Assembly: GCA_965242565.1 (NCBI GenBank)
Contig: OZ251457.1
Coordinates: 2,904,653 to 2,968,652 of the forward strand
Source of the DNA: Dehalococcoidia bacterium
GTDB lineage: Bacteria; Chloroflexota; Dehalococcoidia; Bin125
Direction: 5' to 3'
Length of the DNA stretch: 64,000 bases
Position numbers and translations under genes: made by a program. The notes below the pieces were generated by a model. The model was given only the letters and a program-made list of their open reading frames with translations. It searched no databases and had not been told where the DNA came from. The stretch's first letter is position 1. Each line of letters begins with the position of its first letter. Shown here piece by piece: positions 1 through 21,986 of the stretch.

Positions 1-1093
1 AAACGACCGCAAATCCAACGATACCGACGCCCAAACCGCCGCCCGCGACTGGCACGCCGCTCTCGCCGAGCGACGCTGGGTCGCCCCCCACTGGCCCGCC
101 GAATACGGCGGCGGCGGACTCGGCCCCATGGAGCAGTTCATCCTCAACCACGAACTCGCCGAATCCGGCGCACCCGGCGTCGGCGGCTCCGGCGTCCAGA
201 TGCTCGGTCCCACCCTGATCATGCACGGCTCCGACGAGCAGAAAGCCCAATACCTGCCGCCCATCCTCAACGCCGAAGTCACCTGGGCCCAGGGCTACTC
301 CGAACCCGGTTCCGGCTCCGATCTCGCCTCACTCACCACCCGCGCCGTCCGCGACGGCGACGAATTCATCCTCAACGGACAGAAAATCTGGACCTCCGCC
401 GCCCACACTGCCGACGCCATGTTCGCACTCGTCCGCACCGACCCCGACGCCCCCAAACACCGCGGCATCTCCTTCGTCATGATCGACGACATCCACACCC
501 CCGGCATCACCGTCCGACCACTCATCAACGTCAACGGCGACCACTACTTCAACGAAGTCTTCTTCGAAGACGTCCGCATCCCCGCCCGCAACCTCGTCGG
601 CGAACTCAACCGCGGCTGGTACGTCGGCATGACCCTGCTCGATTTCGAGCGCTCCAACATCGCCGGCGCAGTCGCCGCCCGCCGCCAACTCCGCCAACTC
701 ATCGACCACATCCGCGAAAACGCCCAGGGCGCCGCCGAGCGCGTCCGCGGCCCGCTCCGCAACGAAATCGCCGAGCGCTGGATCGAAACCGAAACCCTCT
801 TCCAGTTTTCCTTCCGCATCATCTCCATGCAGACCGCCGGCCTCGTCCCCAACTACGAAGCCTCCACCGCCAAACTCTTCGCCAGCGAACTCAACCAGCG
901 CCTCGCCCTCACCGCTACCCGCGTCTTCGGCCTGCACGCCAACCACTGGGCCCCAACCGCCCAACTCGGCCCGCCCGCCTCCACCTTCACCCGCAACTAC
1001 ATCGCCATGGTCCCCGCCACCATCCGCGGCGGCACCAGCGAAGTTCAGCGCAACGTCATCGCCACCCGCGGCCTCGGCCTCCCGCGAGGATAA
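1..1093 (+). CDS. acyl-CoA dehydrogenase, 5'-partial (reading frame open to the window start; upstream translation ...DWHAALAERRWVAPHWPAEYGGGGLGPMEQ continues the domain)
   Basis: ORF-track protein carries acyl-CoA dehydrogenase middle and C-terminal hallmarks (QGYSEPGSGSD, GQKIWTSAAH, C-terminal IRGGTSEVQRNVIATRGLGLPRG). Clear paralogue of the gene at 31865..33058, which shares the C-terminal ATRGLGLPRG. Confidence 0.85.
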   Translation, partial: NDRKSNDTDAQTAARDWHAALAERRWVAPHWPAEYGGGGLGPMEQFILNHELAESGAPGVGGSGVQMLGPTLIMHGSDEQKAQYLPPILNAEVTWAQGYSEPGSGSDLASLTTRAVRDGDEFILNGQKIWTSAAHTADAMFALVRTDPDAPKHRGISFVMIDDIHTPGITVRPLINVNGDHYFNEVFFEDVRIPARNLVGELNRGWYVGMTLLDFERSNIAGAVAARRQLRQLIDHIRENAQGAAERVRGPLRNEIAERWIETETLFQFSFRIISMQTAGLVPNYEASTAKLFASELNQRLALTATRVFGLHANHWAPTAQLGPPASTFTRNYIAMVPATIRGGTSEVQRNVIATRGLGLPRG

Positions 1094-1095
1094 TC

Positions 1096-4000
1096 ATGAC
1101 CGAACGAGAACCCAATCTGCCGCCGACTCCCCCGGCGCAAGGCGACCAGGAGTTGCGCGACCGCGTCATCGCCGCGGCGATCGACCGCTGGGTGCGCGAC
1201 CTGACAGATCTGGGCGGGCGCAACAGCCTCATTTATCCCCCGCAGATCCGCGACGCCGCTCTCAACCTCACCCCATCCGCCGGTGCGGACGCCGACGCCG
1301 TCCAGCGAATCCTCAGCGGACAGCGCGTTGCGCTCTCCGAGTGCTTCCAGGCCAAACGACTTGCCGACGCTGCGCGCCGCGGTCGCACAATCGCGCGCCG
1401 CGCCGGCTGGCAAGCGGAAGAGACGGGCCTCCAGACGCTCTATCTCGGTCTGGGCGTCGTTTCGTGGAATGTCGAAGACGGCCCGCGCCCCGCCGCGCCG
1501 CTTCTACTCGCAGCCGTAGAGCTCACGCCGCGCGGACGCCTCAGCGAGGACTTCCGCATCGAGATCGTCGGTGACTGGCAGATCAATCTCGTCCTGATTC
1601 AGCTTCTCAAGAACGGCTTCGGCGTTGATCTCTCCGAGGGCGAATTCGAAGACATCCTGAAGGAGTTCGAGTCGCCCGCGCAGATCGATGATTTGTTTCA
1701 GGCCATCGCTGCTGTTCTGGATCGCGCGTGCGTCTCCATCCCCGGTTTTCGCATCGAAAAGACGGCGCTGCTGAGTAACTTTTCGTACGCGAAGCTTCCG
1801 ATGGTCCGCGATCTCGAGGAGTCCGCAGACTCTATCCGCAAACATCTGCTCGTTTCGGCGCTTGCCGGGGTCCCCGGCGCCCGGGAGCGGCTGCGCGACA
1901 GCGTCTTACCGGATGGCCGCGCTGATTTCGCCGCCGAGCTCCCGCCGCAAGATGAGTTCCTCGTCCTCGATGCGGATGCTTCCCAGTCCGCAGCGATCAA
2001 CGCCGCGCTCGCCGGACGCAACCTCGTCATCATCGGGCCGCCGGGCACCGGCAAGTCACAGACTATCGCCAACCTGATCGCCGCGCTTGTCGCGAATGAA
2101 AAGTCCATCCTGTTCGTCGCCGAGAAGCGTGCCGCCATCGAAACCGTGGCGGCGCGCCTCAAAAGCGTCGGCTTGGGTGATTTGCTCCTCGACGTCCACG
2201 GCGGCGTCCGCGACCATCGCCGTACGCTTGAGCAAATCGCGCAGGCGCTCGAAACGGCGCGCAGCGGGACTGTCGCTAACGATCCGTCGGACATTGGCCG
2301 CAGATTAATCCACAGCCGTAAGCGGCTCGCTGCCGCTGTGGAGGTGCTGCACCGGCCCGTAGAACCCTGGGGCCTTTCGGCATACGACGTCCAGGGCGAG
2401 TTGCTGGCGGTGGACGATCGCGATCGCCTGGACCGACGTCTCCGTGTGGAGTCGCTGAAACGCCTGGTCGGCGAAACGCTCGAATCCGTTCGGATAGACC
2501 TGCGCGCCTACGTCAATCTCCATCGACGTTTTGTCGATCCACAGAGTCCATGGTACGGCGCTTTTCGACGCGGGACGCTCGGGGTGCCTGCGCAAAGCGC
2601 GCAGGCCGTCGAAGAAATAGGCCAGCTCACCACCGTTACCCTGCCTCGCCTCCGGCGAGAGCTTGTCTCCCTGTCTGCAAAACTTGGCCTCGACCCGCCC
2701 GCGCGACTTGATGAAGTCGCCGGCTTAATCGATCGTGCCCGCCGGATCGTCGAGGCCTCCCGCACACTCAACGACGCCGCATCGCATTGGCGCAGCCAGT
2801 TTCAGACGGAAGCGGACCTCGCCGAATTACGCGATGCCCTCCAGCCGGTCCGCGGCGGCCCGGTCGCCAGGTTCGCCGCCGCTCTGTTGAGCAGTCGTTA
2901 CCGACAAGCGCGTGCGTCGGTTCGCGCAGCGCTGGTGCGTCAGACCGATGACGCCCGCGAAACGCTCCGCCTCCTCGATTGGCTGATCGACGCTCGATTC
3001 GCGCTCAACGACGCGGCGACGCCGAACCTGGCTCCGGAGTACGTTAATCCGCACAGGCTCGCCGAGATCGACCCCGAACCTGCCGCCAATGCGCTTCAGA
3101 CGGTTGAGCACTCTCTCAGCATCGTCGCCGATGTGGTCATGACCAAAGGATCCATGGCGAGCGACTTGGACCAGATCGAATCGATGCTCCGCGCCCTTGA
3201 CGCCGATCGCGACAGCATGCGCAATCTCATTCGTCTGCCCGAGCTTCACGACAGACTTGCCGAAGCCGGTCTCGGTGCGTTCACAGGTGTCGAGGCCGAT
3301 GTCGAACGCGATCCCGATTGGGACGGCGATGCGGCGGTTCGAGCTTTCGAGTACGCCAGGCTGCAAGGTATTCAGCAGTATCTGCTGGATCAATCCCCCG
3401 AGATCGCCGCCTTCGACGCCGCCAGTCACAACGCCGCGCTGAGCGAGTTCAACGAAGCGGACCGCGCACACGTCAGGACCAACCGGGATCGCATCCTTCG
3501 GCAGTGGGCGGAGAGAGTGATCGACGCGCGTGAACGTTTCCAGGCGGAAGGAGCTGAGCTGCTCTTCGAATCAAAGCGGAAACGTCGTCACATCCCGCTG
3601 CGGCAACTTTTCCACCGGGTTCCCAACATACTGACCCGGCTGAAGCCTTGTTGGGCGATGTCGCCGCTCGTCGTCTCCCAACTGCTGCCCAACGACGGAC
3701 CGCTATTCGATGTCGTCATTTTCGACGAGGCCTCGCAGGTGCGCCCGGCCGACGCTATCCCCGCGCTGCTGCGCGGCCGACAGGCCGTGATCGCAGGCGA
3801 TCCCAAGCAGCTGCCGCCGAACACCTTCTTCCTGTTCACCGCGTCCGATTCGGAAGACGAAAACGACGCTGCGGCGAGCGGACCGCCCACGGTCGATCTC
3901 GAGTCCATCCTCGATGCGGTCGCGGCGCTGCTGCCCGCTCCGTACGGCAGCCGGATGCTCAGCTGGCACTACCGCTCCCGCGACGAGCGGCTGATCGCGT

Positions 4001-5259
4001 TCTCCAATCGCCATGTCTACGGCCGACAGCTGACGACGTTCCCCGGCGCGCTGCGCGACGACTGCATTACGCACGTCGAGATTCCACGGTCGCCCGATTC
4101 CGTGTACCGCAACGCCTCGAACCCGGCTGAGGTTCGCAAAGTCGTCCAGCTCATTCTCGATCACGCCGAGCAGCGGCCGCACGAGTCGCTCGGCGTCATC
4201 GCGCTCGGTCTCCCCCACGCGAGTCAGATTGAAGAGATGCTGCGTCGTGCTCGACGCACTCGGCGCGACCTTGACGAATTCTTCAGCGAGGGAGGACATG
4301 AACCGTTTTTCGTCAAGAACCTGGAGCGCGTTCAGGGCGACGAGCGGGACGCGATCATCTTCACGGTCGGCTACGGGCGCGATCGTGACGGGCGGGTCCC
4401 CAACCGCTTCGGGCCGGTTGCCGGAGCCGGCGGCTACCGACGACTGAATGTCGCCATTACACGGGCAAAGCGTCGTATGACGGTAGTGTCGGCGTTCAGC
4501 GCCGACGATATCGATCCTGATCGCTTTCACAGCGAAGGCGTGCGCATGCTCGGGGAGTACATCGCCTACGCGGCCAGTGGAGGCCGGAACCTGAGTTTCG
4601 TCGACGCGGATACACAGCTGCTCAATCCGTTCGAAGCCGATGTAGAGCGCCGACTCGCCGCGGCCGGCATTCCGCTCAAGGCGCAATACGGCGCATCGGG
4701 CTATCGAATCGACTTTGCGGCGTTCCACCCGCAGCGCTCGAATCAGCCTGTCCTCGCCATTGAGGCCGACGGCGCTACCTACCATTCCGGTAAGAGCACT
4801 CGAGATCGCGATCGCCTCCGCCAGGATCACCTCGAGCGGCTCGGCTGGCGCTTCTACCGCATCTGGTCCACCGAGTGGTTCCGCAACCCGGAGCGGGAAG
4901 TTGAGCGATGCGTGGCAGCCTGGCGCGACGCCGTCGAGTCCTTGGAGAGCGGTGCAGAGCCCACATCGGTCGAACGCGCCGCCGAGCCGCTTGCCGCCGC
5001 TGCGCGACAGACACCGCAGCGCAGTCTCAGACCCAACATCGGTCCACCACGCGCGACCATCTCCGAGTACAGCGAAGCCGAACTTGCGGACCTTGTCCGC
5101 TGGATTCGGTCCGACGAAAAACTCCGCACGATGCAGGAACTGATTCAGGACACCATCAAGGAGTTGGGTTACCGTAAACGCAGCGGCGGAATCGAGGCCG
5201 CCGTCCGACGCGCGATCGCTGTCGCGAATCGGACAGGAGCCGACCATGACGACCAGTAA
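1096..5259 (+). CDS. large SF1 helicase-nuclease, 1387 aa. Domains: DUF4011-like N-terminus; Upf1/DNA2-like AAA_11-AAA_12 helicase (Walker A IIGPPGTGKSQT, motif II DVVIFDEASQ); Vsr/DUF559-like REase domain; C-terminal DUF3320-like tail. Resembles the 'Hhe' single-gene defence architecture
   Basis: Motifs read directly from the ORF translation. ATG sits 2 nt after the upstream stop. Domain-family names come from recall of Pfam architectures, not from a search. Confidence 0.8.
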   Translation: MTEREPNLPPTPPAQGDQELRDRVIAAAIDRWVRDLTDLGGRNSLIYPPQIRDAALNLTPSAGADADAVQRILSGQRVALSECFQAKRLADAARRGRTIARRAGWQAEETGLQTLYLGLGVVSWNVEDGPRPAAPLLLAAVELTPRGRLSEDFRIEIVGDWQINLVLIQLLKNGFGVDLSEGEFEDILKEFESPAQIDDLFQAIAAVLDRACVSIPGFRIEKTALLSNFSYAKLPMVRDLEESADSIRKHLLVSALAGVPGARERLRDSVLPDGRADFAAELPPQDEFLVLDADASQSAAINAALAGRNLVIIGPPGTGKSQTIANLIAALVANEKSILFVAEKRAAIETVAARLKSVGLGDLLLDVHGGVRDHRRTLEQIAQALETARSGTVANDPSDIGRRLIHSRKRLAAAVEVLHRPVEPWGLSAYDVQGELLAVDDRDRLDRRLRVESLKRLVGETLESVRIDLRAYVNLHRRFVDPQSPWYGAFRRGTLGVPAQSAQAVEEIGQLTTVTLPRLRRELVSLSAKLGLDPPARLDEVAGLIDRARRIVEASRTLNDAASHWRSQFQTEADLAELRDALQPVRGGPVARFAAALLSSRYRQARASVRAALVRQTDDARETLRLLDWLIDARFALNDAATPNLAPEYVNPHRLAEIDPEPAANALQTVEHSLSIVADVVMTKGSMASDLDQIESMLRALDADRDSMRNLIRLPELHDRLAEAGLGAFTGVEADVERDPDWDGDAAVRAFEYARLQGIQQYLLDQSPEIAAFDAASHNAALSEFNEADRAHVRTNRDRILRQWAERVIDARERFQAEGAELLFESKRKRRHIPLRQLFHRVPNILTRLKPCWAMSPLVVSQLLPNDGPLFDVVIFDEASQVRPADAIPALLRGRQAVIAGDPKQLPPNTFFLFTASDSEDENDAAASGPPTVDLESILDAVAALLPAPYGSRMLSWHYRSRDERLIAFSNRHVYGRQLTTFPGALRDDCITHVEIPRSPDSVYRNASNPAEVRKVVQLILDHAEQRPHESLGVIALGLPHASQIEEMLRRARRTRRDLDEFFSEGGHEPFFVKNLERVQGDERDAIIFTVGYGRDRDGRVPNRFGPVAGAGGYRRLNVAITRAKRRMTVVSAFSADDIDPDRFHSEGVRMLGEYIAYAASGGRNLSFVDADTQLLNPFEADVERRLAAAGIPLKAQYGASGYRIDFAAFHPQRSNQPVLAIEADGATYHSGKSTRDRDRLRQDHLERLGWRFYRIWSTEWFRNPEREVERCVAAWRDAVESLESGAEPTSVERAAEPLAAAARQTPQRSLRPNIGPPRATISEYSEAELADLVRWIRSDEKLRTMQELIQDTIKELGYRKRSGGIEAAVRRAIAVANRTGADHDDQ

Positions 5260-5300
5260 CCGAACTGACGCACTCCCCGGTCTCCCGCGAGGCTGACGCC

Positions 5301-8300
5301 ATGGCCCGCCGAACGCCCGCCAACGACCCCGACGCCGTCCGCCGCGCCCTGCGCAGCTGGACCAACCAGCTGATCGACACCGGCGGACGCAACCGTCTGC
5401 TCTACTTCAAACACCTCAAGCGCGGCACCCTCGACCTCGGCCCCGACTCCGGCGCAGACTCCGCCGTCGCCGTCGCCCTCCGGCGCGGGCGCAGCATCAA
5501 ACTCTCCGACTGCTTCCCCGACGACAGCGGCGCCGCCGCCTCCCAGCGCGCTCGCTGGATCCTCCGCAAAGCCCGCGAGCACGAAGAAGAACAGGGCATC
5601 CGCACCCTCTACCTCGGCTGGCGCTTCGCAACCTGGCAGCAGTCCGGCCCCGGCCCCGCTACCCCCAACGCCCCGCTCCTGCTCGCCGCCGCCGAACTCA
5701 CCCCCCAGGGCCGCATGGGCGACGACTTCACGCTCAGCATCGCCGACGACTGGGAGGTCAACCCCAGTATGGCCCAGCTGCTCAAGCGCGAATTCGGCGC
5801 GGAACTCGACGAAGCCGCTCTCGAAGACCTGCTTCAGGCCGACCCGCTCGACGACGCGGCCATCCTCAATCAGCTCCGCCGCGCCTACGACACCATCCCC
5901 GGCTTCAACATCCACGACGGCCTCGTTCTCGGCACCTTTTCCTACGCCAAGCTCCCCATGGTCCGCGACCTTGAAGCCGCCGAAGCCGCCGTCGCCCAGC
6001 ATCCGCTCGTCGCCGCCATCGCCGGCGATCCCCAGGCCCAGGAGCAGCTGCGCGACACTCAGCGCAACGGCGCGCGCGGCCAATCCGTCCCCGGCGGCGA
6101 CGACCTCCCCCCGCGCGACGAGTTCCTCGTGCTCGACGCCGACGGCACCCAAAGCGAAGTGATCAACGCCGCCGTCGCCGGCGCAAACCTCGTCGTCGTC
6201 GGACCGCCCGGCACCGGCAAAAGCCAAACCATCGCCAACCTGCTCGCCACTCTCACCGCCCACGGGCGCTCAACCCTCTTCGTCGCCGAAAAGCGCGCCG
6301 CCATCGACGCCGTCGTCAAACGCCTCAACAGCGTCGGCCTCGGCGACCTCGTGCTCGACCTCCACGAAGGTATGCGCAGCCGTCGCCAAACCGCCGAACA
6401 ACTCGCCGCCGCCCTCGAAACCGCCCACACCGCCCGCGCCCCCAACGTCGAAACCCTCCAGCGCACCCTCAATCAAAGCCGCAAGAGGTTGAGCGACGCA
6501 GAACGCGAACTGCACCAGCCGCACGAACCCTGGGGCCTGTCGATCTATCAGCTCCAGTCCCGCATTCTCGGGATGGGTGATTCGAAGGACATCGGACTGC
6601 GAACAAGCGGTCGCGCCCTCAACGCGCTTCATGGCGAAGCCCTTGAAGCAGCAAAAGATGAGCTCGCCGAGTACATCAATCTCAACGGCGCAGTTCTGGA
6701 TGCGTCCCCCGATGCCCCCTGGGGCGCAGCCCATCGCGCCTCAACGCTGTCGACAAGTGAGCGGGCAGCCGAAGCAGTCCGGCTGCTGGATGACCTGAGC
6801 GGTCGGCTGCTGCCGGAAGTCGAACACGAGCTGGCGGAGATGGCCCAACATCTGGGCATCGACCCGCCCGCGACAGAGTCGATGACGCAAGCGCTGCTTG
6901 AGGCGCTCGCGCGCTTCGAGCCGCTGCACGGGCGGTTTGCCCCCGCAGCGTTCCAAGCCGGCGATGTGGAGAGCCTGCTCTCAGCGCTTGAGCCCGCCGA
7001 GCGCGGTCCTCTTGCCGAACTCAGCGAGACCGACCTGACGCCGTGGGGAGTGACGGTCGAAGAACTCGATCTACGCATTCAGGCGCTTGGCCCTGCTCCT
7101 GAGACCAGCCTCCGCTTACGCGGCGATCGCCTCAAGCGGCTCCGCGGCGACATGCTGGCGCAAGCGATGGCCGATCTGGAGGAGTACATCGATCGTGGCG
7201 GCGCGGAGCTTGACGTATCCGATGCTGCTCCGTGGAGCGCCGCTCACCGAACGTCATCTCTAAGGTCGGAAGCCGCAATCGATGAGGCCGGGCGCCTCCT
7301 TGATCGGCTCAGCGGCGAATTGCTGCCGGCGCTGGAGCGTGAAATCGCCCCGATCGCACAGCAGTTGGGCATCGCTCCGCCCGCGACAGTGCCGATGACG
7401 CGAGCGTTGCTTGAGGCGCTCACGCGCTTTGGGCCGTTGCACGGACGGTTCACGCCCGCAGTGTTCCAGGCCGACGATGTGGAGAGCCTGCTCTCAGCGC
7501 TTGACCCCGCCGAGCGCGGTCCTCTTGCCGGACTGAGCGCGACCGATTCAACGCCGTGGGGCGTAACGGTCGATGAGCTTGACTCACGCATTCAGGTACT
7601 AGGCCAGGCTCCCGAGACTAATTTGCGCTTGCGTGGCGACGCACTCAAGCGGCTCGGCGGCGACTTGCTGGCGCCGATCATGGCTGATCTTGAGGAGTAC
7701 GTCGATCGCGGCGGCGCGGAGCTTGAGGCATCCGATGCTGCTCCGTGGAGCGCCGCTCACCGAGCGTCAACCCTAAGGTCGGAAGCCGCAACCGATGAGG
7801 CAAATCGTCTCCTTGATCGGCTCAGCGGCGAATTACTGCCGGCGCTAGAGCGAGAAAATACGTCAATCGCACAGCATCTGGGCATCGCCCCGCCGCCTAC
7901 GCCAGAGACGATGCGAATACTGTTCGAGGCTCTGGATCGCTTTGCGCCATTGCAGGCGCGCTTTACGCCTGCCGTGTTCGCAGCAGACAACCTGGATAAC
8001 GTTGTCGCGCAACTCGAAGTCGCGAGCCAAGGCCCTCTTGCCGGCGTTGGCGGCGACCAGCGCACTCCTTGGGGCGTGACAGCTGGCGAACTCGATCTGC
8101 GCATCCAGGCCTTGGGTGATGCTCCGCTGTGCGACTTGCGGCTGCGGGGGGACACGCTGAGTGCGCTGGCTGGCGACTCGTTGCAGCGTATGATTGGGCA
8201 CCTCGCCGAGTACATGAATCGCGGCGGTGCCGATCTTGATGCGTCCTTTGGTGCGTGGAGCCCTGTGCATCAGGCGGCGGCCATCGACTCGAACGAACGG

Positions 8301-11300
8301 GTCGCGACTGCAGCTGACTTGCTCGATGAACTGTCGTCAAAGCTGCTGCCTGGCGTCGAACACGAACTGCGCGGAATCGCCGAACGACTGAGCATCGATG
8401 TACCCGCCACGATCGATGAAGCCCACGCGGCGCTTGCGGCAATTCGGCAAATGCAGGGACAACGGGAATGGTTCGCATCAGCAGTGTTCGACGCGAACGT
8501 CGAAACACTGCTCAGCGATCTGGAGGCCAGCCAGGGAGGTGCATTTGGACAGATCATGGCCCGGCTGTTCAATGCGCGATATCGCAGGGCCGTGCGAGAC
8601 TCACGCGAGTTGCTGCTCGATGAACAATCTTCACCAGGGGAGGCGTACGCTCGCTTGGTCGCGTTCTCCAAGGCGTGCGAAGCGTGGCGTGGCATAGCGC
8701 CGGACGATCCGACCGCCGCCGTCTGGGAGATCGACATTGCGCCGTGCGAGGCTGCCCTGGATCTGTTCTCGGACACGCTCGCGACGTTCCACAACGTAGT
8801 CGGGTTTGGCGACGCTGGCCTCGACTGGGCTGCGCAGCGCGAATGGCTCGACGCGCTGGAGCGCGAACGCGCAGTCTTGCTCCAGCTGCCGCACTTGGGG
8901 TCGCTGCGGAACCTGCTCGAGGACGCATCTGTCGCAGAATTCGCCCGGGAAGCTGAGCGACGAGGGTGGAGTGGGAACGAAGCAGCGCAAGCGCTGGATG
9001 AAGCTTGGACCCACTCCGCCCTTGCCGAGCTGACGGAGAGCGAACCGACTTGGCGTGCGCCGTACCGCGCGGCGCGCGCGAACGCGGACGAATGGCTCGT
9101 CCACCCTGACATGCCAACCGCGTGGGTACATCGGTGGCTGCGCGAGTTCACGGATGCTCGCGACCTGTGGCAACGAGCAACTGCCGCGTCTCCGATACCT
9201 GCGGTCTGGACGATCGCTCCTGACGAGGGCGCTGATGCGCTGGAGCGATTCTCCGAGGCGCTCACTGCATTCTGTGCGCTCGCGGCGCTGGATGATGTCG
9301 ATCTCGACTGGCCAACACAACGAGCACAGCTGAATACACTCCAGAGCCATCGTGCGGTCCTGTTCCAGCTTCAACGCTTGGCTTTCCTGCGCGAGCGTCT
9401 CCAGGACACGGCGGTCCTGGGCTTCGCGCGTGAAGCGCAACGACGTGGTTGGACCGGTGGTAATGCGGCGCAGGCTCTCAGCGATGCTTGGACCCGCTCG
9501 GTGCTTGACGAGGTGCAAGAAAGCGAGCCGACATCACACGCGCCATACCGGGCAGCGCGTGCGCGTGTCGACGAATTGCTGGCTCATGCAGCCATGCCAA
9601 CCGCGTGGGCAACTCAATGGCTGCGCGAGTTCGTGGATGCTCGCGACCTGTGGCAACGAGCCACCACCGCGTCTCCGACACCGGCAGCTTGGACGATTGC
9701 GCCTGACCAAGCCGCCAATGCGCTGGAGCGATTCTCGGAAACGCTCGCTGCGCTTTGTGCGCTCGCCGCGCTGGATGACGCTCACCTCGACTGGTCAGCA
9801 CAGCGAATGCGATTGGAGGCGCTCCAGAACCACCGCGCGGTACTGTCCCAACTCCCACGCTTGGCCTCCCTACGCGAGCGCCTGCAGGACGCCGCGATCC
9901 TGGACTTCGCGCGCGAAGCGCAACAACACGGCTGGACTGGCGATCGCGCCGCGCGGGCCCTCAACGACGCCTGGACTCGCTCGGTGCTTGACGAGGTGCA
10001 AGAAAGCGAGCCGACATCACACGCGCCGTACCGGACAGCGCGTGCGCGGGTCGACGAACTGTTGACTCATACGGCCATGCCGACCGCGTGGGTGGTTCAA
10101 TGGCTGCGCGAGTTCGTCGAAGCTCAGCGCATCTGGCAGCGCGCCGTGGCGTCCACTCCCACCGCTGCCGTCTGGACTGCCTCGCCCGCAAACTGCGCCA
10201 CTGCGCTGGCGCAGTTTGCGGAAGCGGCTGACGCCTTCTCTAATCTCGCGGCGCTCGATGATGCCGCTCTCGATTGGGCGGCGCGGCGGGCGCAGATCGA
10301 CTCGCTGCAACGCGACCGTACAGTCGCGCATCGTCTCCCCCGGTTGCACGACCTGCGGGCAAGCCTGAAACGTCGTGGCATGACGCGACTCGTGGCGGCG
10401 GTCCATCGACGCGGACTCGACGGGCGCGGCGCGGTAGAGGCGTTTGAGGACGCTTGGGCTCGTTCCGTGCTGAATGCGGTGAGCGCGGATGCGCCGATCT
10501 TCGCCTCGTTCAACGCTGACGGGCATAACAAGGCCGTCGCGGAATTCTGCGACGCCGACCGCGAGCACATCGCTCAAAGCCCCCGGCGCGTCGTCCGCGC
10601 CTGGGCCGAAGCCGCCGTCGCCGCACGCGACGAACATCCCGAACAGTCCCAACTGATCATGCGCGAGGCCAACCGCAAGCGGCGCCACCTGCCCACCCGC
10701 GACCTCTTCCAGCAGGCGCCCGACGTGCTTACCGCGCTCAAACCCTGCTGGGTCATGAGCCCGCTCGTCGTCGCCCAGCTGCTTCCGCTCGACGGCGATC
10801 CTCCTTTCGACGTTGTCGTCTTCGACGAAGCCAGCCAAATCCCGCCCGCCGACGCCGTTTCCTCCCTGCTGCGCGGACGCCAGGCCATCGTCGCCGGCGA
10901 CCCCAAACAGCTACCGCCCACCTCCTTCTTCACCAGCAGCACCGACCCTGACGACGACGACGACCTAGTCCCCCTGCTCACCCAGGATGTCGAATCAATC
11001 CTCGACGCCATGAGCACCCTGCTGCCCATGCCCTGGGGCTCCCGCACCCTCGGCTGGCACTACCGCAGCAAGGACGAGCGCCTGATCGCATTTTCCAACC
11101 ACCATGTCTACGACCGCCGCCTCACCACCTTCCCCGGCGCGTTGCCCGACGACTGCCTCGAACATGTCGAAGTTCCCTTCGAGCCGGACGCCTCCTGGGT
11201 CAGCGGCTCCTACTCCCCCGAGGTACAGCGCGTCGTCGAGCTGATCCTGCGGCACGCCGCCGAGCGCCCCGACGAGACGCTCGGCGTGATCGCCCTCGGC

Positions 11301-12320
11301 GCGGCCCACGCCAACCGCATCGCCGAAACCCTGCGCCTCGCCCGACGCGACCGCCCCGAACTCGACGACTTCTTCAGCGAAGCCAACGCCGAACCGTTCT
11401 TCGTCAAAAACCTCGAGCGCGTGCAGGGCGACGAGCGCGACGCCATCATCCTCACCGTCGGCTACGGGCGCACCGAGCACGGCCGCATGCGCTACAACTT
11501 CGGCCCCATCAACCAGGAGGGCGGCTTCCGACGCCTCAATGTCGCCGTCACCCGCGCCAAGCGCCGTATGACCGTCGTCAGCTGCTTTTCCCACAAACAC
11601 ATGGACCCCGGTCGGCTCAACAACGAGGGCGTGCGGATGCTGCGCGACTACATCGAATACGCCGCCGGCGGCGGCCGCAAACTCGGCGCCGGCGCGATCG
11701 ACGCCCCGCCGCTCAACTCGTTCGAGATCGATATCAAAAACCGCCTCGAACGGCGCGGCCTCAAGCTCCAGCCGCAGTACGGCGTCTCCGGCTACCGCAT
11801 CGACTTCGCCGCAATGCACCCCGATGAACCGGGACGCCCCATCCTCGCCATCGAAGCCGACGGCGCGCAATACCACTCCGCCCAGGCCGCGCGCGACCGC
11901 GACCGTCTCCGCCAGGAAAACCTCGAGCGACTCGGCTGGCGCTTCCACCGCATCTGGTCCACCGAGTGGTTCCGCAACCCCGAGCTCGAAGCCGACCGTG
12001 CTCTGGACGCCTACCAAGAAGCGCTCGCCGACGACCGCAAAGCCCCCTCATCCGCGCCGCCGGAAGAACCCCCTGCTGAGCCGCCGGAAGAACCGCCTCC
12101 CCCACCGTCGCGCGACCCGCGACCACCGGTGCAGCCCGGCCAAAAGATCGACGACTACAGCCCCCGCCAGCTGACCAGCATCATCGAGTGGATCGAATCC
12201 GACGGCCGCCTCCGCACCGAAGACGAACTGCTCGCCGAAGCAATGCAAGAACTCGGCTTCAAACGCCGCGGAACCAAAATCGTTGCCGCCCTCACCGAGG
12301 CCATCCGCCGCGCCCGCTGA
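5301..12320 (+). CDS. giant paralogue (2339 aa) of the upstream helicase-nuclease, with the same N-terminal, Walker A (VVVGPPGTGKSQT), motif II (DVVVFDEASQ), REase and DUF3320-like regions. About 1000 extra residues lie between the Walker A and Walker B motifs as tandem repeats
   Basis: Collinear similarity with 1096..5259 at both ends. Starts 41 bp after the upstream stop, on the same strand. Confidence 0.8.
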   Translation: MARRTPANDPDAVRRALRSWTNQLIDTGGRNRLLYFKHLKRGTLDLGPDSGADSAVAVALRRGRSIKLSDCFPDDSGAAASQRARWILRKAREHEEEQGIRTLYLGWRFATWQQSGPGPATPNAPLLLAAAELTPQGRMGDDFTLSIADDWEVNPSMAQLLKREFGAELDEAALEDLLQADPLDDAAILNQLRRAYDTIPGFNIHDGLVLGTFSYAKLPMVRDLEAAEAAVAQHPLVAAIAGDPQAQEQLRDTQRNGARGQSVPGGDDLPPRDEFLVLDADGTQSEVINAAVAGANLVVVGPPGTGKSQTIANLLATLTAHGRSTLFVAEKRAAIDAVVKRLNSVGLGDLVLDLHEGMRSRRQTAEQLAAALETAHTARAPNVETLQRTLNQSRKRLSDAERELHQPHEPWGLSIYQLQSRILGMGDSKDIGLRTSGRALNALHGEALEAAKDELAEYINLNGAVLDASPDAPWGAAHRASTLSTSERAAEAVRLLDDLSGRLLPEVEHELAEMAQHLGIDPPATESMTQALLEALARFEPLHGRFAPAAFQAGDVESLLSALEPAERGPLAELSETDLTPWGVTVEELDLRIQALGPAPETSLRLRGDRLKRLRGDMLAQAMADLEEYIDRGGAELDVSDAAPWSAAHRTSSLRSEAAIDEAGRLLDRLSGELLPALEREIAPIAQQLGIAPPATVPMTRALLEALTRFGPLHGRFTPAVFQADDVESLLSALDPAERGPLAGLSATDSTPWGVTVDELDSRIQVLGQAPETNLRLRGDALKRLGGDLLAPIMADLEEYVDRGGAELEASDAAPWSAAHRASTLRSEAATDEANRLLDRLSGELLPALERENTSIAQHLGIAPPPTPETMRILFEALDRFAPLQARFTPAVFAADNLDNVVAQLEVASQGPLAGVGGDQRTPWGVTAGELDLRIQALGDAPLCDLRLRGDTLSALAGDSLQRMIGHLAEYMNRGGADLDASFGAWSPVHQAAAIDSNERVATAADLLDELSSKLLPGVEHELRGIAERLSIDVPATIDEAHAALAAIRQMQGQREWFASAVFDANVETLLSDLEASQGGAFGQIMARLFNARYRRAVRDSRELLLDEQSSPGEAYARLVAFSKACEAWRGIAPDDPTAAVWEIDIAPCEAALDLFSDTLATFHNVVGFGDAGLDWAAQREWLDALERERAVLLQLPHLGSLRNLLEDASVAEFAREAERRGWSGNEAAQALDEAWTHSALAELTESEPTWRAPYRAARANADEWLVHPDMPTAWVHRWLREFTDARDLWQRATAASPIPAVWTIAPDEGADALERFSEALTAFCALAALDDVDLDWPTQRAQLNTLQSHRAVLFQLQRLAFLRERLQDTAVLGFAREAQRRGWTGGNAAQALSDAWTRSVLDEVQESEPTSHAPYRAARARVDELLAHAAMPTAWATQWLREFVDARDLWQRATTASPTPAAWTIAPDQAANALERFSETLAALCALAALDDAHLDWSAQRMRLEALQNHRAVLSQLPRLASLRERLQDAAILDFAREAQQHGWTGDRAARALNDAWTRSVLDEVQESEPTSHAPYRTARARVDELLTHTAMPTAWVVQWLREFVEAQRIWQRAVASTPTAAVWTASPANCATALAQFAEAADAFSNLAALDDAALDWAARRAQIDSLQRDRTVAHRLPRLHDLRASLKRRGMTRLVAAVHRRGLDGRGAVEAFEDAWARSVLNAVSADAPIFASFNADGHNKAVAEFCDADREHIAQSPRRVVRAWAEAAVAARDEHPEQSQLIMREANRKRRHLPTRDLFQQAPDVLTALKPCWVMSPLVVAQLLPLDGDPPFDVVVFDEASQIPPADAVSSLLRGRQAIVAGDPKQLPPTSFFTSSTDPDDDDDLVPLLTQDVESILDAMSTLLPMPWGSRTLGWHYRSKDERLIAFSNHHVYDRRLTTFPGALPDDCLEHVEVPFEPDASWVSGSYSPEVQRVVELILRHAAERPDETLGVIALGAAHANRIAETLRLARRDRPELDDFFSEANAEPFFVKNLERVQGDERDAIILTVGYGRTEHGRMRYNFGPINQEGGFRRLNVAVTRAKRRMTVVSCFSHKHMDPGRLNNEGVRMLRDYIEYAAGGGRKLGAGAIDAPPLNSFEIDIKNRLERRGLKLQPQYGVSGYRIDFAAMHPDEPGRPILAIEADGAQYHSAQAARDRDRLRQENLERLGWRFHRIWSTEWFRNPELEADRALDAYQEALADDRKAPSSAPPEEPPAEPPEEPPPPPSRDPRPPVQPGQKIDDYSPRQLTSIIEWIESDGRLRTEDELLAEAMQELGFKRRGTKIVAALTEAIRRAR
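6670..8700. repeat. intragenic tandem repeat family A: 4 units of ~510 nt (~170 aa). Unit boundaries fall at about 6670, 7177, 7691 and 8205. The 4th unit is diverged
   Basis: Near-identical nucleotide stretches are visible, e.g. ...gaggagtacatcgatcgtggcggcgcggagcttga... recurs with ~510-nt period. Protein blocks DLEEYIDRGGAELD...APWSAAHR...LGIAPPAT...PLHGRFTPAVFQ are repeated. Confidence 0.8.
8700..10560. repeat. intragenic tandem repeat family B: ~4 units of ~480 nt (~160 aa)
   Basis: Protein blocks FAREAQRRGWTGxxAAQAL(S/N)DAWTRSVLDEVQESEPTSHAPYRxARARVDELLxHxAMPTAWxxQWLREFV recur with ~160-aa period. The corresponding nucleotide stretches are nearly identical. Confidence 0.75.
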
Positions 12321-12365: not shown

Positions 12366-12914
12366 TTAACAGTCGGCGATGCCGAGCGCATAATGTATCG
12401 CCCACCTCTCCGGCTCCTCCGCATTCGCCGCCCTACGGACGATCTCAACGAGCTCTGCGTATACGCGCATGTCGTCGTCGTTTTCGACAAATCGAGGGTC
12501 AGCCGGCCGAGTGGTTCGCGACACGAACGTTACGTACTGTCCGTTGATCACTCGCAATTCGTAATCCTCAACCCGCGACCCGTTCTGCTCGATGAGCGCC
12601 GCGAGCTCCTTTGGCAGCTCGGAATCAGCCGTGAGTCCGTGATCGATGATTGAGTCGAAATATGTTTCTTCATATCCCGACTCACTATCCTGTATGCACA
12701 CATCCTCATCTGGTATCCCCAGGTACTCCCCGCGGTCGTTCGTGTAGTCAGCCAACGCAAGGCCAAGCTGGCGCCCCGACCCACCCCCAATAGGCCACGG
12801 ATCGGGCGTTGGCGGCAGCGACGGGCTGGACGAAGGCCCCAATTGCCAAACGAGCACGGCAATGATCGCCGCCGCAACCGCCACGCCAACGCCGGCGAGA
12901 GTGAACGTCCTCAT
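12366..12914 (-). CDS. hypothetical membrane-anchored/secreted protein. Start taken at MRTFTLAGVGVAVAAAIIAVLV, an N-terminal TM helix or signal anchor
   Basis: ORF with a hydrophobic N-terminus. Gene body is clearly lower in GC than its surroundings. I recognise no domain. Confidence 0.45.
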   Translation of the reverse strand: MRTFTLAGVGVAVAAAIIAVLVWQLGPSSSPSLPPTPDPWPIGGGSGRQLGLALADYTNDRGEYLGIPDEDVCIQDSESGYEETYFDSIIDHGLTADSELPKELAALIEQNGSRVEDYELRVINGQYVTFVSRTTRPADPRFVENDDDMRVYAELVEIVRRAANAEEPERWAIHYALGIADC

Positions 12915-13242
12915 GGCCGTCTCGCTTCCCGATCCGCCGCTCCTCCGCCGCCGGGTGGGACCGCAGCGCGTCAAGGCGCATTATCGCACTGCGCACGCCA
13001 GGCTACCGCGCGCGTCGCACCCGGCCCCGCCGCGCTCGACTTGATCGGAGCCTGCCCTGACCTGAACAGAGGCGCTCAAGCCTGACGTCGTTCGCAGGCC
13101 GAAGCGACGATGAGGCCGCTGTCGCGGCGAACCGCGGCTGCCGGTGCGCAGCCCACATCGCCTGTGCGCATTTGCCGCTTGATAGTTGGCTTACCCCAAC
13201 ATACGCTCAGATCGTTGCCAAATACGCACGACAGGGCCGTGA

Positions 13243-14340
13243 ATGCCACGCTCGATCACCCTCCTCTGCGACATCGACGACGACCTGCGCGCCCGGATCG
13301 AGCAGGCGCAGCGCGCCGCCAACGCCGCCCAGGCCGCCGTCCCCGACGGCTACGAGCGCTTCCTGCGGCGGCGCGGCGGATACCTCAGCGGGCGCGCCTC
13401 CACCGTGATCGAGGGCAACCCGCTCGACGAGCGCGCCTCGCAGCTCGCAGCCTTTGACGGCGAGGGCGACTCGCCGGCTCACATCGACCTGCGCAACTCG
13501 ATCGAAGCCTGCGCGCTCGCGCTCGACTGGGCGCAGGACCTCTCTTTCCACCTCGACCAGGGCGCAATTCGCGCTTTCAATTCCGTGCTCCTGCGCGGCC
13601 TGCCCGGGCGCGCCGCCGACAACCGCGGCCGCTACCGCCTCGGCGGCAGCCTGGTTATGAACACCGCGACCCGCAGCATCGTCTACACCACCCCGCCGCC
13701 CGCCTGGCTGCCCGAACTGATGGACTCGCTGGAAGCGCGCATCGCCGAGTGGCAGCGCGACGACCCGCCCGCCGTCGTCGCCGCCAAAGCCCACTTCAGC
13801 CTCGTCTCCGTGCATCCCTTCGAGGACGGCAACGGCCGCACGGCGCGGCTGCTCGCCGACCTCATCCTGCACCGCGCGGGCCTCACCGCGGACGGAATGG
13901 CCGCGCTGAGCGGCGCCATCCTCAGCCGCCGCGCCGAGTACTACGAAACCCTCGCCGCCGTGCAGGGCGCGGAGTTCCAGTGCGTCGTCGACGTTGCGCC
14001 CTTTGTCCACTTCCACACCTCCGCGCTGCGCGACGCAATCGAAACGCTGCGCAGCTACGTGGACGCGCTGAACCGCCGCCGCCAGACGCTCCAGGCGCTC
14101 CAGGCGCTGCAAGCCGCCGACGCGCTCTCCGAGCGCCGCATCCTCGGCCTCCTTGCAATGCTTCAATTCAGCCCGCTCTCCGCTTCCACCTGGGGCGAGC
14201 TCGCCGAGTGCTCGCCGCAGACCGCCCGAACCGACCTCGCCGCACTGACCGCCGACGGCTTCGTCGAACGCATCGGGCGCGGCAAGGCGACCCGCTACGA
14301 CCTCTCGGCGTACACCCGCGACCTGCTCGGCGCGGCCTAA
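13243..14340 (+). CDS. Fic family protein (Fic/DOC fold)
   Basis: Canonical Fic active-site motif HPFEDGNGRTAR is present in the translation. The C-terminal region is consistent with a winged-helix tail. Confidence 0.85.
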   Translation: MPRSITLLCDIDDDLRARIEQAQRAANAAQAAVPDGYERFLRRRGGYLSGRASTVIEGNPLDERASQLAAFDGEGDSPAHIDLRNSIEACALALDWAQDLSFHLDQGAIRAFNSVLLRGLPGRAADNRGRYRLGGSLVMNTATRSIVYTTPPPAWLPELMDSLEARIAEWQRDDPPAVVAAKAHFSLVSVHPFEDGNGRTARLLADLILHRAGLTADGMAALSGAILSRRAEYYETLAAVQGAEFQCVVDVAPFVHFHTSALRDAIETLRSYVDALNRRRQTLQALQALQAADALSERRILGLLAMLQFSPLSASTWGELAECSPQTARTDLAALTADGFVERIGRGKATRYDLSAYTRDLLGAA

Positions 14341-21732: not shown

Positions 21733-21986
21733 GGCATGCTCTCCTTCCACCGCTCCGCTGTCGGCCCGCATGATAGTACACAAGTTCGGTTGCTGTACAG
21801 CCGTCGCCGCTCGCCAGCGCCTCTCTCCCAACTCGTCATAAACGTCGGTGCAGCCCGCGCGGGAGCGACGGCCATCCTGTCGCGTGCTCGTGCGGTTAGC
21901 CTTGGGGCATCGCACAGGCGCAGTTGACACGCAGTTGGCATGCAGTTGACAAGGGCGTGCTGCGCACGACTGGAGAGGAGTTCGAG

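What the first reader, a model, noticed from the sequence alone, without database searches (positions are those of the whole stretch)
1096..12320. Two tandem paralogous Hhe-like helicase-nuclease genes in direct succession
Two head-to-tail genes, 41 bp apart, encode the same rare architecture. That architecture is an N-terminal DUF4011-like region, a Upf1/DNA2-type SF1 helicase (GPPGTGKSQT ... DVV(I/V)FDEASQ), a Vsr/DUF559-like endonuclease block (YRIDFAA(F/M)HP...LAIEADGA(T/Q)YHS...RDRLRQ..LERLGWRF.RIWSTEWFRNPE) and a DUF3320-like tail. To my recollection this is the single-gene 'Hhe' anti-phage protein architecture. Hhe is normally a solitary gene. A tandem pair in which one member is massively repeat-expanded is unusual. 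It suggests sub-functionalisation (for example sensor versus effector, or two specificities), or a diversifying locus. Immediate neighbours are an acyl-CoA dehydrogenase, a low-GC membrane protein and a Fic protein.
Basis: partly seen in the sequence, partly recalled or inferred. Interest (0 to 1): 0.7.

Follow-up and report, generated by a model that had tools for sequence, protein, structure and literature searches.

The report
Tandem Hhe-like defence helicase-nucleases, extendable arm
Two adjacent genes encode relatives of a known single-gene anti-phage helicase-nuclease, and the second carries a fast-changing helical arm that grows or shrinks only by equal numbers of two different modules, which probably marks the part of these poorly understood enzymes that sets their specificity.

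Summary
Gene A (1096-5259, 1387 aa) and gene B (5301-12320, 2339 aa) lie 41 bp apart. Both have DUF4011, a Upf1-like SF1B helicase and an MTES_1575/Vsr-type nuclease, with intact catalytic motifs. No DUF3320 tail was detected.

Their best family matches are PADLOC candidate PDC-S37 and NCBIfam ProA. Hhe ranks second, and both proteins score below the curated ProA and Hhe cut-offs.

The tandem pair is rare. None of 80 diverse loci has a second copy. B is the resident gene at this site in all seven related loci. A sits between a duplicated 3' end of the upstream acyl-CoA dehydrogenase gene, and one sister strain carries a different paralog in that slot.

B's extra length is four copies of a 171-aa module (R1) followed by four copies of an unrelated 161-aa module (R2). 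Both arrays lie inside helicase domain 1. Orthologs are (1,1), (2,2), (3,3) or (4,4), never unequal. Alleles with 96-99% identical cores have inserts only 34-58% identical. Covariation suggests that R1 and R2 pack antiparallel.

My reading is a diversifying defence locus whose hypervariable, length-matched arm is the specificity or sensor element. Function is inferred, not shown.

The parts
128..1093 (+). Acyl-CoA dehydrogenase gene, 5'-truncated in this ORF call. Its stop codon lies 2 bp before the ATG of gene A. It is the conserved left flank in all related loci.
   Evidence: Pfam Acyl-CoA_dh_N/M/1. 95-99% identical in L001, L002 and L083-L086.
1076..1089 (+). Direct repeat, copy 1 (GGCCTCCCGCGAGG). 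This is the true 3' end of the dehydrogenase gene and encodes ...GLPRG*.
   Evidence: The 11-mer CTCCCGCGAGG occurs only twice in the 64 kb window, at 1079 and 5282.
1096..5259 (+). Gene A, 1387 aa. Order of parts: DUF4011 (aa 25-171), Walker A GPPGTGKS (aa 314-321), one R1 module (aa 423-600), one R2 module (aa 601-775), motif II DEASQ (aa 877-881), RecA2 (about aa 950-1132), MTES_1575/Vsr-type nuclease (aa 1179-1274), and a conserved about 60-aa tail.
2362..3420 (+). Gene A insert: a single R1 module (2362-2895) followed by a single R2 module (2896-3420). It lies inside helicase domain 1, between motifs I/Ia and II.
5279..5292 (+). Direct repeat, copy 2 (GGTCTCCCGCGAGG, followed by CTGA), inside the 41-bp A|B spacer. 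It is a relic of the dehydrogenase 3' end (GLPRG*), which directly precedes the B start codon in single-gene relatives.
5301..12320 (+). Gene B, 2339 aa. Same architecture as A: DUF4011 (aa 24-161), Walker A (aa 301-308), motif II (aa 1842-1846), RecA2 (about aa 1914-2094) and nuclease (aa 2141-2234). The difference is four R1 modules followed by four R2 modules. B is the resident gene of this site in all seven related loci.
6380..10600 (+). Hypervariable cassette of gene B (about aa 360-1765). Against the sister strain L002, DNA identity is 93-100% outside this stretch and 32-68% inside it.
6525..8576 (+). R1 array, four 171-aa (513-bp) modules: R1a 6525-7037, R1b 7038-7550, R1c 7551-8063, R1d 8064-8576.
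   Evidence: Purifying selection between units: R1b versus R1c has dN/dS 0.31 and dS 0.68.
8577..10508 (+). R2 array, four 161-aa (483-bp) modules: R2a 8577-9059, R2b 9060-9542, R2c 9543-10025, R2d 10026-10508. R2 is not homologous to R1.
   Evidence: hhalign of R1 against R2 gives probability 1%. R2b versus R2c has dN/dS 0.22 and dS 0.65.
4630..4917 (+). Nuclease domain of A (MTES_1575/DUF559, Vsr-like). The predicted catalytic glutamate is E1223 in IEADG.
   Evidence: (E 1.2e-31). The equivalent E1731A change abolishes Hhe defence (bioRxiv 10.1101/2022.06.16.496414).
11721..12002 (+). Nuclease domain of B (MTES_1575/DUF559). E2185 lies in IEADG.
   Evidence: (E 8.3e-33).
12366..12974 (-). 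Small ORF (202 aa) with an N-terminal hydrophobic segment and no family match. It is present only in the loci that also carry an upstream slot gene. Whether it belongs to the system is uncertain.
13243..14340 (+). Fic protein matching the PADLOC SoFic defence model. Context, not part of the pair.
   Evidence: E 2.5e-40.

Best explanation
Both genes encode self-contained, single-polypeptide helicase-nucleases of the Hhe / ProA / PDC-S37 superfamily. Each combines an N-terminal DUF4011 region, a Upf1-like SF1B motor and a Vsr/MTES_1575 endonuclease.

They most likely act independently as anti-phage or anti-mobile-element enzymes. By analogy with Hhe, the ATP-driven motor loads on invader-associated nucleic acid and the C-terminal nuclease cuts it. 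This step is inferred.

B is the long-term resident of this chromosomal site. A is a second, deeply divergent family member. It was placed immediately upstream, leaving a duplicated 3' end of the dehydrogenase gene as a scar. That slot is exchangeable by recombination. These steps are shown.

Helicase domain 1 of every family member is split by an all-helical insert made of two unrelated modules, R1 and R2. I propose that they pack antiparallel into a two-sided arm, going out through R1 and back through R2. This rests on covariation and on length matching, so it is inferred.

The arm is the hypervariable part of the protein. It can be lengthened only by adding the same amount to both sides. 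This explains why B alleles are (1,1), (2,2), (3,3) or (4,4) and never unequal. The pattern is shown; the structural reason is inferred.

I propose the arm is the specificity or sensor surface, or the surface targeted by phage inhibitors. On that view, two genes and many arm alleles broaden or shift the range of invaders recognised. This is inferred.
For: Family and motifs:
- Pfam finds DUF4011, AAA_11, AAA_12 and MTES_1575 in both proteins.
- PADLOC PDC-S37 scores 951 and 961 bits; Hhe scores 478 and 481 bits.
- NCBIfam ProA scores 917 and 939 bits; Hhe scores 642 and 650 bits.
- All catalytic motifs are intact in both proteins.

Defence context:
- A SoFic-like gene and a PsyrTA/Shosta-like pair lie within 10 kb.

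B resident, A added:
- L083, L085 and L086 have B alone, directly after the dehydrogenase stop codon.
- A direct repeat flanks A.
- A forms a deep separate clade.
- In L001 the slot gene is only 50% identical to A, except for its last roughly 550 bp, which are 94-98% identical.

Rarity of pairs:
- None of 80 diverse loci has a second copy.

Matched modules:
- Copy numbers are (4,4) in three proteins, (3,3) in four and (2,2) in one; two further (4,4) cluster members appear.
- Unit trees show positional orthology, a parallel gain of a middle unit in both arrays, and a parallel loss in P0007.
- The youngest duplicates have equal synonymous divergence, dS 0.68 in R1 and 0.65 in R2.
- Across 171 family proteins, R1-side and R2-side lengths correlate with r=0.98. 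Nine expanded length classes have near-equal extensions on both sides.

Hypervariability:
- Alleles with 96-99% identical cores have inserts only 34-58% identical.
- The breakpoints of the variable stretch have been mapped.

Repeat units are functional:
- dN/dS between units is 0.2-0.36.
- The AlphaFold model of R1c-R1d-R2a-R2b has pLDDT 88.7 and pTM 0.53.

Antiparallel register:
- 62 of the top 100 covarying pairs link R1 to R2.
- For the top 40 inter-module pairs the slope is -0.81, r=-0.75, p=3e-8.

Hhe biology:
- Hhe is a single gene, its nuclease glutamate is required for defence, and it is triggered by phage functions rather than by one protein.
Against: - No experiment bears on these two proteins. 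PDC-S37 is only a candidate system, and I could not find the source of the ProA model.
- Both proteins score below the curated ProA and Hhe cut-offs.
- B is syntenic in every relative examined and appears translationally coupled to a metabolic gene. No promoter-like or terminator-like site lies between them. This looks more like a core gene than a mobile defence gene. A DUF4011 gene is a core gene in P. aeruginosa (PMC10250203).
- Whole-segment dN/dS is below 1 everywhere, so there is no direct signal of positive selection.
- The antiparallel packing was not seen in coordinates, because the tools returned none.
- The covariation rests on only about 180 effective sequences. A mean-field DCA run was uninformative. 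Nested recombination tracts centred on the R1|R2 junction could mimic the antiparallel pattern.
- One length class (P0031, P0043, P0046, P0049) could not be assigned cleanly to the two sides.
Confidence: 0.55

Rival explanations
1. B, and perhaps A, is a conserved housekeeping helicase-nuclease working in DNA repair or nucleic-acid quality control rather than immunity. On this view the variable arm reflects relaxed constraint on a spacer-like region.
For: - The B-type gene sits at the same site in all seven related loci.
- Its start codon follows the stop codon of a metabolic gene by 2 bp, with no promoter-like site between them.
- dN/dS is below 1 throughout.
- A DUF4011 gene is core in P. 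aeruginosa.
- Upf1, DNA2 and IGHMBP2 are housekeeping enzymes with the same motor fold.
Against: - Inserts are 34-58% identical inside cores that are 96-99% identical, with cassette-like breakpoints. That is not simple relaxed drift.
- Repeat units are under purifying selection and keep matched numbers.
- The best family matches are defence models.
- Neighbouring genes are defence genes.
- The upstream slot is present, absent or swapped among close strains.
- The family is patchy across phyla, including archaea.
Confidence: 0.17
2. A and B form an obligate heterodimeric helicase-nuclease, like the paralogous subunits of mycobacterial AdnAB or of AddAB. The long arm of B would act as a scaffold.
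For: - The two genes are adjacent, on the same strand and 41 bp apart, with no terminator-like site between them.
- AdnAB-type enzymes are encoded by tandem paralogs. This point rests on my own knowledge of that family.
Against: - B occurs without any partner in L083, L085 and L086.
- The partner is a different paralog in L001.
- The same A (94% identical) pairs with either a (4,4) or a (1,1) B.
- None of 80 other loci is paired.
- Both proteins keep complete motor and nuclease motifs.
Confidence: 0.08
3. The pair is sub-functionalised into a sensor and an effector. One copy would have lost catalysis.
For: The two proteins are asymmetric in size, and only one carries the repeat expansion.
Against: Walker A, motif II, motifs III-VI and the nuclease D/E/H residues are all conserved in both proteins.
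Confidence: 0.05
4. The repeat arrays are an assembly artefact or neutral junk expansion with no functional meaning.
For: Long tandem repeats are prone to mis-assembly.
Against: - Units are only 57-79% identical at the DNA level, so they are easy to assemble.
- The (4,4) form recurs in independent assemblies: P0001, P0002, P0137 and P0140.
- The reading frame is intact, dN/dS between units is 0.2-0.36, and the units model confidently.
Confidence: 0.03

Closest known systems
PDC-S37 (PADLOC 'phage defence candidate', single-gene)
   Same: It is the best-scoring model for both proteins, at E 4.5e-286 and 3.2e-289 with about 950 bits. Two matched stretches span most of the 1550-position profile. 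The size class, about 1350-1400 aa in the (1,1) form, is the same.
   Different: PDC-S37 is a computational candidate. I found no paper in the library that describes or tests it. I found no description of a tandem pair, a hypervariable insert or matched module expansion for it.
ProA (NCBIfam NF058533, 'anti-phage protein ProA')
   Same: It is the best NCBIfam match, at 917 and 939 bits.
   Different: The scores fall below the curated cut-off of 1500 bits. The profile has 1903 positions, and the best matched stretch covers only profile positions 1101-1786 for A and 804-1764 for B. I could not locate the source publication.
Hhe (Gao et al. 2020 single-gene system; NCBIfam NF042953, PADLOC PDLC02194)
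   Same: - It shares DUF4011, an SF1 helicase and a Vsr-like nuclease in one polypeptide.
- The nuclease glutamate needed for Hhe defence (E1731) is conserved here in IEADG.
- Hhe is normally solitary.
   Different: - It is only the second-best match: 642 and 650 bits against a cut-off of 2000, and 478 and 481 bits in PADLOC.
- An Hhe-like comparator (L045) has about 400 aa before DUF4011 and a DUF3320 tail. Both features are missing here.
- The gap between motif I and motif II is about 620-640 aa in many of the more distant genome loci, including the L045 comparator, against about 550 aa in this subfamily.
Upf1-like SF1B helicases (Upf1, IGHMBP2, SETX/Sen1, DNA2, Aquarius, ZNFX1)
Type I restriction-modification HsdS target-recognition domains
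   Same: A conserved enzymatic core carries a hypervariable cassette that is exchanged by recombination. In HsdS, the length of a helical spacer also affects specificity. This is a functional analogy from my own knowledge.
   Different: There is no homology, and here the variable part is inserted in the motor protein itself. A role in specificity is untested for this family.

Membership tests
Hhe | Score at or above the curated equivalog cut-off of NCBIfam NF042953 (2000 bits) | tested here: not met
   A scores 642 bits and B scores 650 bits.
Hhe | N-terminal DUF4011 domain | tested here: met
   PF13195 with E 1.3e-9 for A and 3.5e-12 for B.
Hhe | SF1 helicase core (AAA_11 + AAA_12) with intact motifs | tested here: met
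Hhe | C-terminal Vsr-like endonuclease with the catalytic glutamate | tested here: met
   MTES_1575 with E 1e-31 and 8e-33. IEADG is conserved. For Hhe E1731A.
Hhe | DUF3320 C-terminal domain, as in the Hhe-like comparator L045 | tested here: not met
   Pfam gives no hit at E<=10 on either tail, but finds DUF3320 in L045 at E 2.5e-9. BLASTP gives E 1.8. hhalign gives 8% probability over a short motif.
Hhe | Protection against phage when expressed alone | not testable with these tools
   This needs a phage-challenge assay.
ProA (NCBIfam NF058533) | Score at or above the curated cut-off (1500 bits) | tested here: not met
   A scores 917 bits and B scores 939 bits.
PDC-S37 (PADLOC) | Best-scoring PADLOC model with a near full-length match | tested here: met
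   E 4.5e-286 and 3.2e-289, about twice the Hhe score. This output lists no curated cut-off.
PDC-S37 (PADLOC) | Occurs as a solitary gene | tested here: not met
   Two family genes lie 41 bp apart here and in L001, L002 and L084. The gene is solitary in 80 of 80 other loci.
Upf1-like SF1B helicases | RecA1 fold and motifs most similar to Upf1, IGHMBP2 and DNA2 | tested here: met
AdnAB/AddAB-type heterodimeric helicase-nucleases | Both subunits always co-occur | tested here: not met
   B occurs alone in L083, L085 and L086, and the partner is swapped in L001.

The most novel reading that the evidence does not exclude
The R1/R2 insert is an extendable, two-sided antiparallel arm that serves as the specificity-determining sensor, or as the decoy surface for phage inhibitors, across the whole Hhe / ProA / PDC-S37 superfamily. 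Its sequence and length would be kept polymorphic by phage pressure. Alleles with (1,1) to (4,4) modules would coexist on near-identical enzyme cores and be exchanged by recombination. Arm length itself would act as a molecular ruler that tunes what the helicase-nuclease recognises or how far from the motor it acts. If so, this is a new mode of diversification for a single-protein immune enzyme. It would also give a direct experimental handle on how Hhe-like proteins sense infection.
Probability: 0.35. Interest if true: 0.8.

Novelty: new variant of a known kind. Interest (0 to 1): 0.62.

Why it matters
In the papers I could search, nothing describes how Hhe-type single-gene helicase-nucleases sense infection or choose their targets.

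This locus marks one region, the helical insert in helicase domain 1, as the fast-evolving and recombining part. That region obeys a strict rule: R1 copy number equals R2 copy number. The rule predicts the region's architecture, an antiparallel arm of adjustable length.

This yields concrete experiments: arm swaps, arm-length series and unequal-number constructs. It also supplies natural allelic series, (1,1) to (4,4), on nearly identical cores.

The locus further shows how a second family member can be stacked onto a resident one, and later exchanged, at a chromosomal site that is not an obvious mobile element.

Tried and rejected

2. Mean-field DCA on 235 modules was dominated by gap-associated pairs and showed no trend. 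I replaced it with gap-free MI-APC. A first MI run on 142 sequences was only suggestive.

3. R1 and R2 as diverged copies of one repeat. Rejected: hhalign gives probability 1%.

4. A as a recent tandem duplicate of B. Rejected: A is 44-57% identical to B, while B orthologs are 69-95% identical to one another. A is a deep separate branch.

5. Pervasive positive selection in the insert. Not seen at whole-segment level: dN/dS is 0.29 in the insert against 0.17-0.20 in the core. Site-level tests were not run.

6. Literature search for PDC-S37, ProA, and an Hhe structure or mechanism. Nothing relevant turned up.

7. The first full-length MAFFT alignment made for the arm model covered the query poorly. 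I rebuilt it from module sub-sequences.

8. Organism identification. The genome-contig scan did not return the window's own lineage; its best hit was 42% identical. Rfam found nothing in the window. The nearest named relatives are Actinomycetota MAGs, so the host is probably an uncultured actinobacterium with a genome of about 3.2 Mb and about 66% GC. This is an inference.

9. The P0031 length class. Its extra roughly 140 aa match the C-terminal part of R1 and the N-terminal part of R2 only weakly. I left it as ambiguous.
Full report
**What is there.** Two + strand ORFs occupy the stated coordinates. Gene A is 1096-5259 (1387 aa) and gene B is 5301-12320 (2339 aa). They are separated by 41 bp. 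Pfam finds the same domain order in both: DUF4011, an AAA_11 domain split in two, AAA_12, and the MTES_1575/DUF559 (Vsr-like) endonuclease. The proteins are 54% identical in the C-terminal 663 aa and 44% in the N-terminal 575 aa. The upstream neighbour is an acyl-CoA dehydrogenase whose stop codon lies 2 bp before the ATG of A. Downstream lie a small unknown ORF on the minus strand, a Fic protein, a double CoA-transferase and a lower-GC membrane protein.

**Which family.**
- PADLOC ranks the candidate system PDC-S37 first, at about 950 bits (E 1e-286 and 1e-289). Hhe is second at about 480 bits.
- NCBIfam ranks 'anti-phage protein ProA' first (917 and 939 bits, cut-off 1500). Hhe is second (642 and 650 bits, cut-off 2000). 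Both proteins therefore fall below both curated thresholds.
- No DUF3320 is detectable in either tail even at E<=10. An Hhe-like ORF from Acetobacter (L045) does show DUF3320, and it also has about 400 aa ahead of DUF4011 that are absent here. Pairwise and profile comparisons of the tails give only a weak 'LGFxRRG' resemblance.
- The proteins are therefore members of the Hhe-related superfamily and best filed under PDC-S37. They are not Hhe proper.
- What the literature says about Hhe: it is a single gene, it is active against several coliphages, it depends on its nuclease glutamate, and it seems to be triggered by phage functions rather than by one protein. I found no structure or mechanism paper, and nothing on PDC-S37 or ProA.

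**Anatomy of the expansion.**
- B differs from A by two tandem arrays inside helicase domain 1, between Walker A (aa 301) and motif II (aa 1842).
- The first array is four 171-aa R1 modules (aa 409-1092). The second is four 161-aa R2 modules (aa 1093-1736). Each module occurs once in A.
- The order is R1x4 then R2x4, not (R1R2)x4. R1 and R2 are not homologous to each other (hhalign probability 1%).
- Units are under purifying selection, with dN/dS of 0.22-0.36 between units.
- A model of R1c-R1d-R2a-R2b is all-helical and confident (pLDDT 88.7, pTM 0.53).

**Matched copy numbers.**
- Among the closest homologs of B, module counts are (4,4) in the window, P0001 and P0002, (3,3) in P0003-P0006, (2,2) in P0007, and (1,1) in P0008 and the more distant homologs. 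Further (4,4) cluster members are P0137 and P0140. No unequal allele was seen.
- Unit trees show positional orthology of first, middle and last units. The fourth unit arose by duplication of the middle unit in both arrays. P0007, sister to a (3,3) allele, lacks the middle unit in both arrays.
- The youngest duplicates in the two arrays have the same synonymous divergence, dS 0.68 and 0.65.
- In other lineages of the family, smaller sub-segments of R1 and R2 have expanded, again on both sides.
- Over 171 proteins, R1-side and R2-side lengths correlate at r=0.98. Nine expanded length classes have near-equal extensions, from (+96,+77) to (+512,+482). One ambiguous class is the exception.
- A single tandem duplication cannot add a unit to both arrays. 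The matching therefore implies selection for equal length on the two sides.

**Antiparallel packing.** No model coordinates were available to me, so I tested the idea by covariation on 235 single-copy R1-R2 modules (about 180 effective sequences). Some of these came from a profile search of 1.84 billion representatives. That search found 1165 proteins with the module, and only the B clade covered a full 2+2 profile. A mean-field DCA was uninformative. Gap-free MI with APC placed 62 of the top 100 pairs between R1 and R2. The top inter-module pairs run in opposite directions: Spearman -0.64 to -0.55, and for the top 40 a slope of -0.81 with r=-0.75 and p=3e-8. The first third of R1 pairs with the last third of R2, and so on. 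This is what an out-and-back arm predicts. The caveats are the low sequence depth and the possibility that nested recombination tracts mimic the pattern.

**Hypervariable cassette.**
- Allele pairs whose N- and C-terminal parts are 96-99% identical have inserts only 34-58% identical, and they differ in copy number. Examples are P0005(3,3)/P0013(1,1), P0007(2,2)/P0014(1,1) and P0006(3,3)/P0015(1,1).
- On a tree built from the conserved parts, expanded and single-copy alleles are interleaved.
- Against sister strain L002, flanking genes are 94-99% identical. B DNA is 93-100% identical up to about nt 6380, drops to 32-68%, and returns to 94% at about nt 10600.
- Whole-segment dN/dS is 0.29 in the insert and 0.17-0.20 in the cores. 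Diversification therefore appears to come mainly from old divergence plus cassette exchange, not from pervasive positive selection.

**History of the pair.**
- Seven related loci share the context: dehydrogenase, then helicase gene or genes, then Fic and CoA-transferase.
- L083, L085 and L086 carry only the B-type gene, which starts 0-2 bp after the dehydrogenase stop codon.
- The window, L084 and L002 carry A plus B. L001 carries a different paralog (P0028, 50% identical to A) plus B.
- The A|B spacer contains a copy of the dehydrogenase 3' end (GGTCTCCCGCGAGGCTGA, reading GLPRG*). The 11-mer CTCCCGCGAGG occurs only twice in 64 kb, at 1079 and 5282, bracketing A.
- The L001 slot gene is A-like (94-98%) only in its last roughly 550 bp. 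This places one recombination breakpoint in the conserved nuclease region.
- A's own clade is small (82-94% identical), followed by a jump to 57%.
- In 80 loci from diverse species, 44 of them with at least 4.5 kb of flank on both sides, none has a second family gene.
- The tandem state is therefore rare, lineage-specific and exchangeable.

**Context.** The Fic protein matches PADLOC SoFic (E 2.5e-40). The DprA-like plus phosphoribosyltransferase pair at 20138-21930 matches PsyrA/PsyrT and ShosA/ShosT. The gene between the CoA-transferase and the beta-lactamase-like gene is absent, different or diverged among strains. The region is a chromosomal mix of metabolic genes and defence-type genes. 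I found no sign of a mobile element.

**Interpretation.** I favour (0.55) two autonomous defence helicase-nucleases stacked at a diversifying locus. Their hypervariable, length-matched arm would be the specificity or sensor element.

- Main rival (0.17): B is a core housekeeping enzyme. Its strict synteny, its tight coupling to a metabolic gene and the core status of a DUF4011 gene in P. aeruginosa support this. The cassette-like hypervariability, the defence-model similarity and the neighbours argue against it.
- Obligate A-B heterodimer (0.08): contradicted by solitary B, by the swapped partner, and by the same A pairing with either a (4,4) or a (1,1) B.
- Catalytic sub-functionalisation (0.05): contradicted by intact motifs in both proteins.
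- Artefact or junk repeats (0.03): contradicted by independent assemblies and by purifying selection on the units.

**Verdict.** The 'Hhe' label is only approximately right, and the 'diversifying locus' idea is supported. The most interesting result lies inside gene B: a modular, hypervariable arm that changes length only in matched R1/R2 steps. This is a new variant of a known (candidate) kind of defence protein. Its function and arm geometry remain to be shown.

Noticed in passing
window 13243-14340 (+): The Fic protein matches the PADLOC SoFic defence model (E 2.5e-40). It is present in all related loci but is more diverged than its flanks: 69-77% identical against 86-97% in the distant relatives.
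   Followed up: partly
window 20138-20926 (-) and 20878-21930 (-): A DprA-like protein plus a phosphoribosyltransferase match PADLOC PsyrA/PsyrT and ShosA/ShosT, a toxin-antitoxin-type defence pair. The pair is absent from L083 and L086. In L085 it is accompanied by an N6_N4 methyltransferase gene.
   Followed up: partly
window 17020-18864 (+): A lower-GC (about 0.60-0.62) 614-aa membrane protein with no Pfam or PADLOC match occupies a variable slot between the CoA-transferase and the beta-lactamase-like gene. The slot is empty in L084 and L085. L001 has a different 862-aa gene there, L083 has two other genes, and L002 and L086 have copies 83% and 72% identical.
   Followed up: partly
window 12366-12974 (-): A 202-aa ORF with an N-terminal hydrophobic segment and no family match. 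It is 97-99% conserved in the three relatives that carry an upstream slot gene (L001, L002, L084). It is absent from the three that have B alone.
   Followed up: partly
window 1091-1098 and related loci L083/L085/L086 around 9998-10001: The helicase gene always starts 0-2 bp after the stop codon of the acyl-CoA dehydrogenase gene, with no promoter-like site between. In one homolog (P0040, 1870 aa) the precomputed domains include Acyl-CoA_dh_1, which suggests a called fusion or read-through of the two genes in another lineage.
   Followed up: no
P0111 (1799 aa): A family member carries an extra RNase_T/DnaQ-like exonuclease domain (PF00929) and is named as a DNA polymerase III epsilon family exonuclease by its source. 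It is a different accessory-domain variant of the same helicase-nuclease.
   Followed up: no
window 39893-42916 (+): A 1007-aa protein has a Sacsin-type domain at the N-terminus and a NOV_C (NO VEIN C-terminal) domain at the C-terminus. From memory, this combination has been seen in defence-associated proteins. I did not examine it further.
   Followed up: no
window 34100-36160 (+): A 686-aa protein made of about nine RCC1 repeats. A similar RCC1/WD40_RLD gene lies near the locus in L084.
   Followed up: no
window 1-64000: No Rfam family reaches its gathering score anywhere in the 64 kb window, so no riboswitch, rRNA or other curated RNA was detected.
   Followed up: yes
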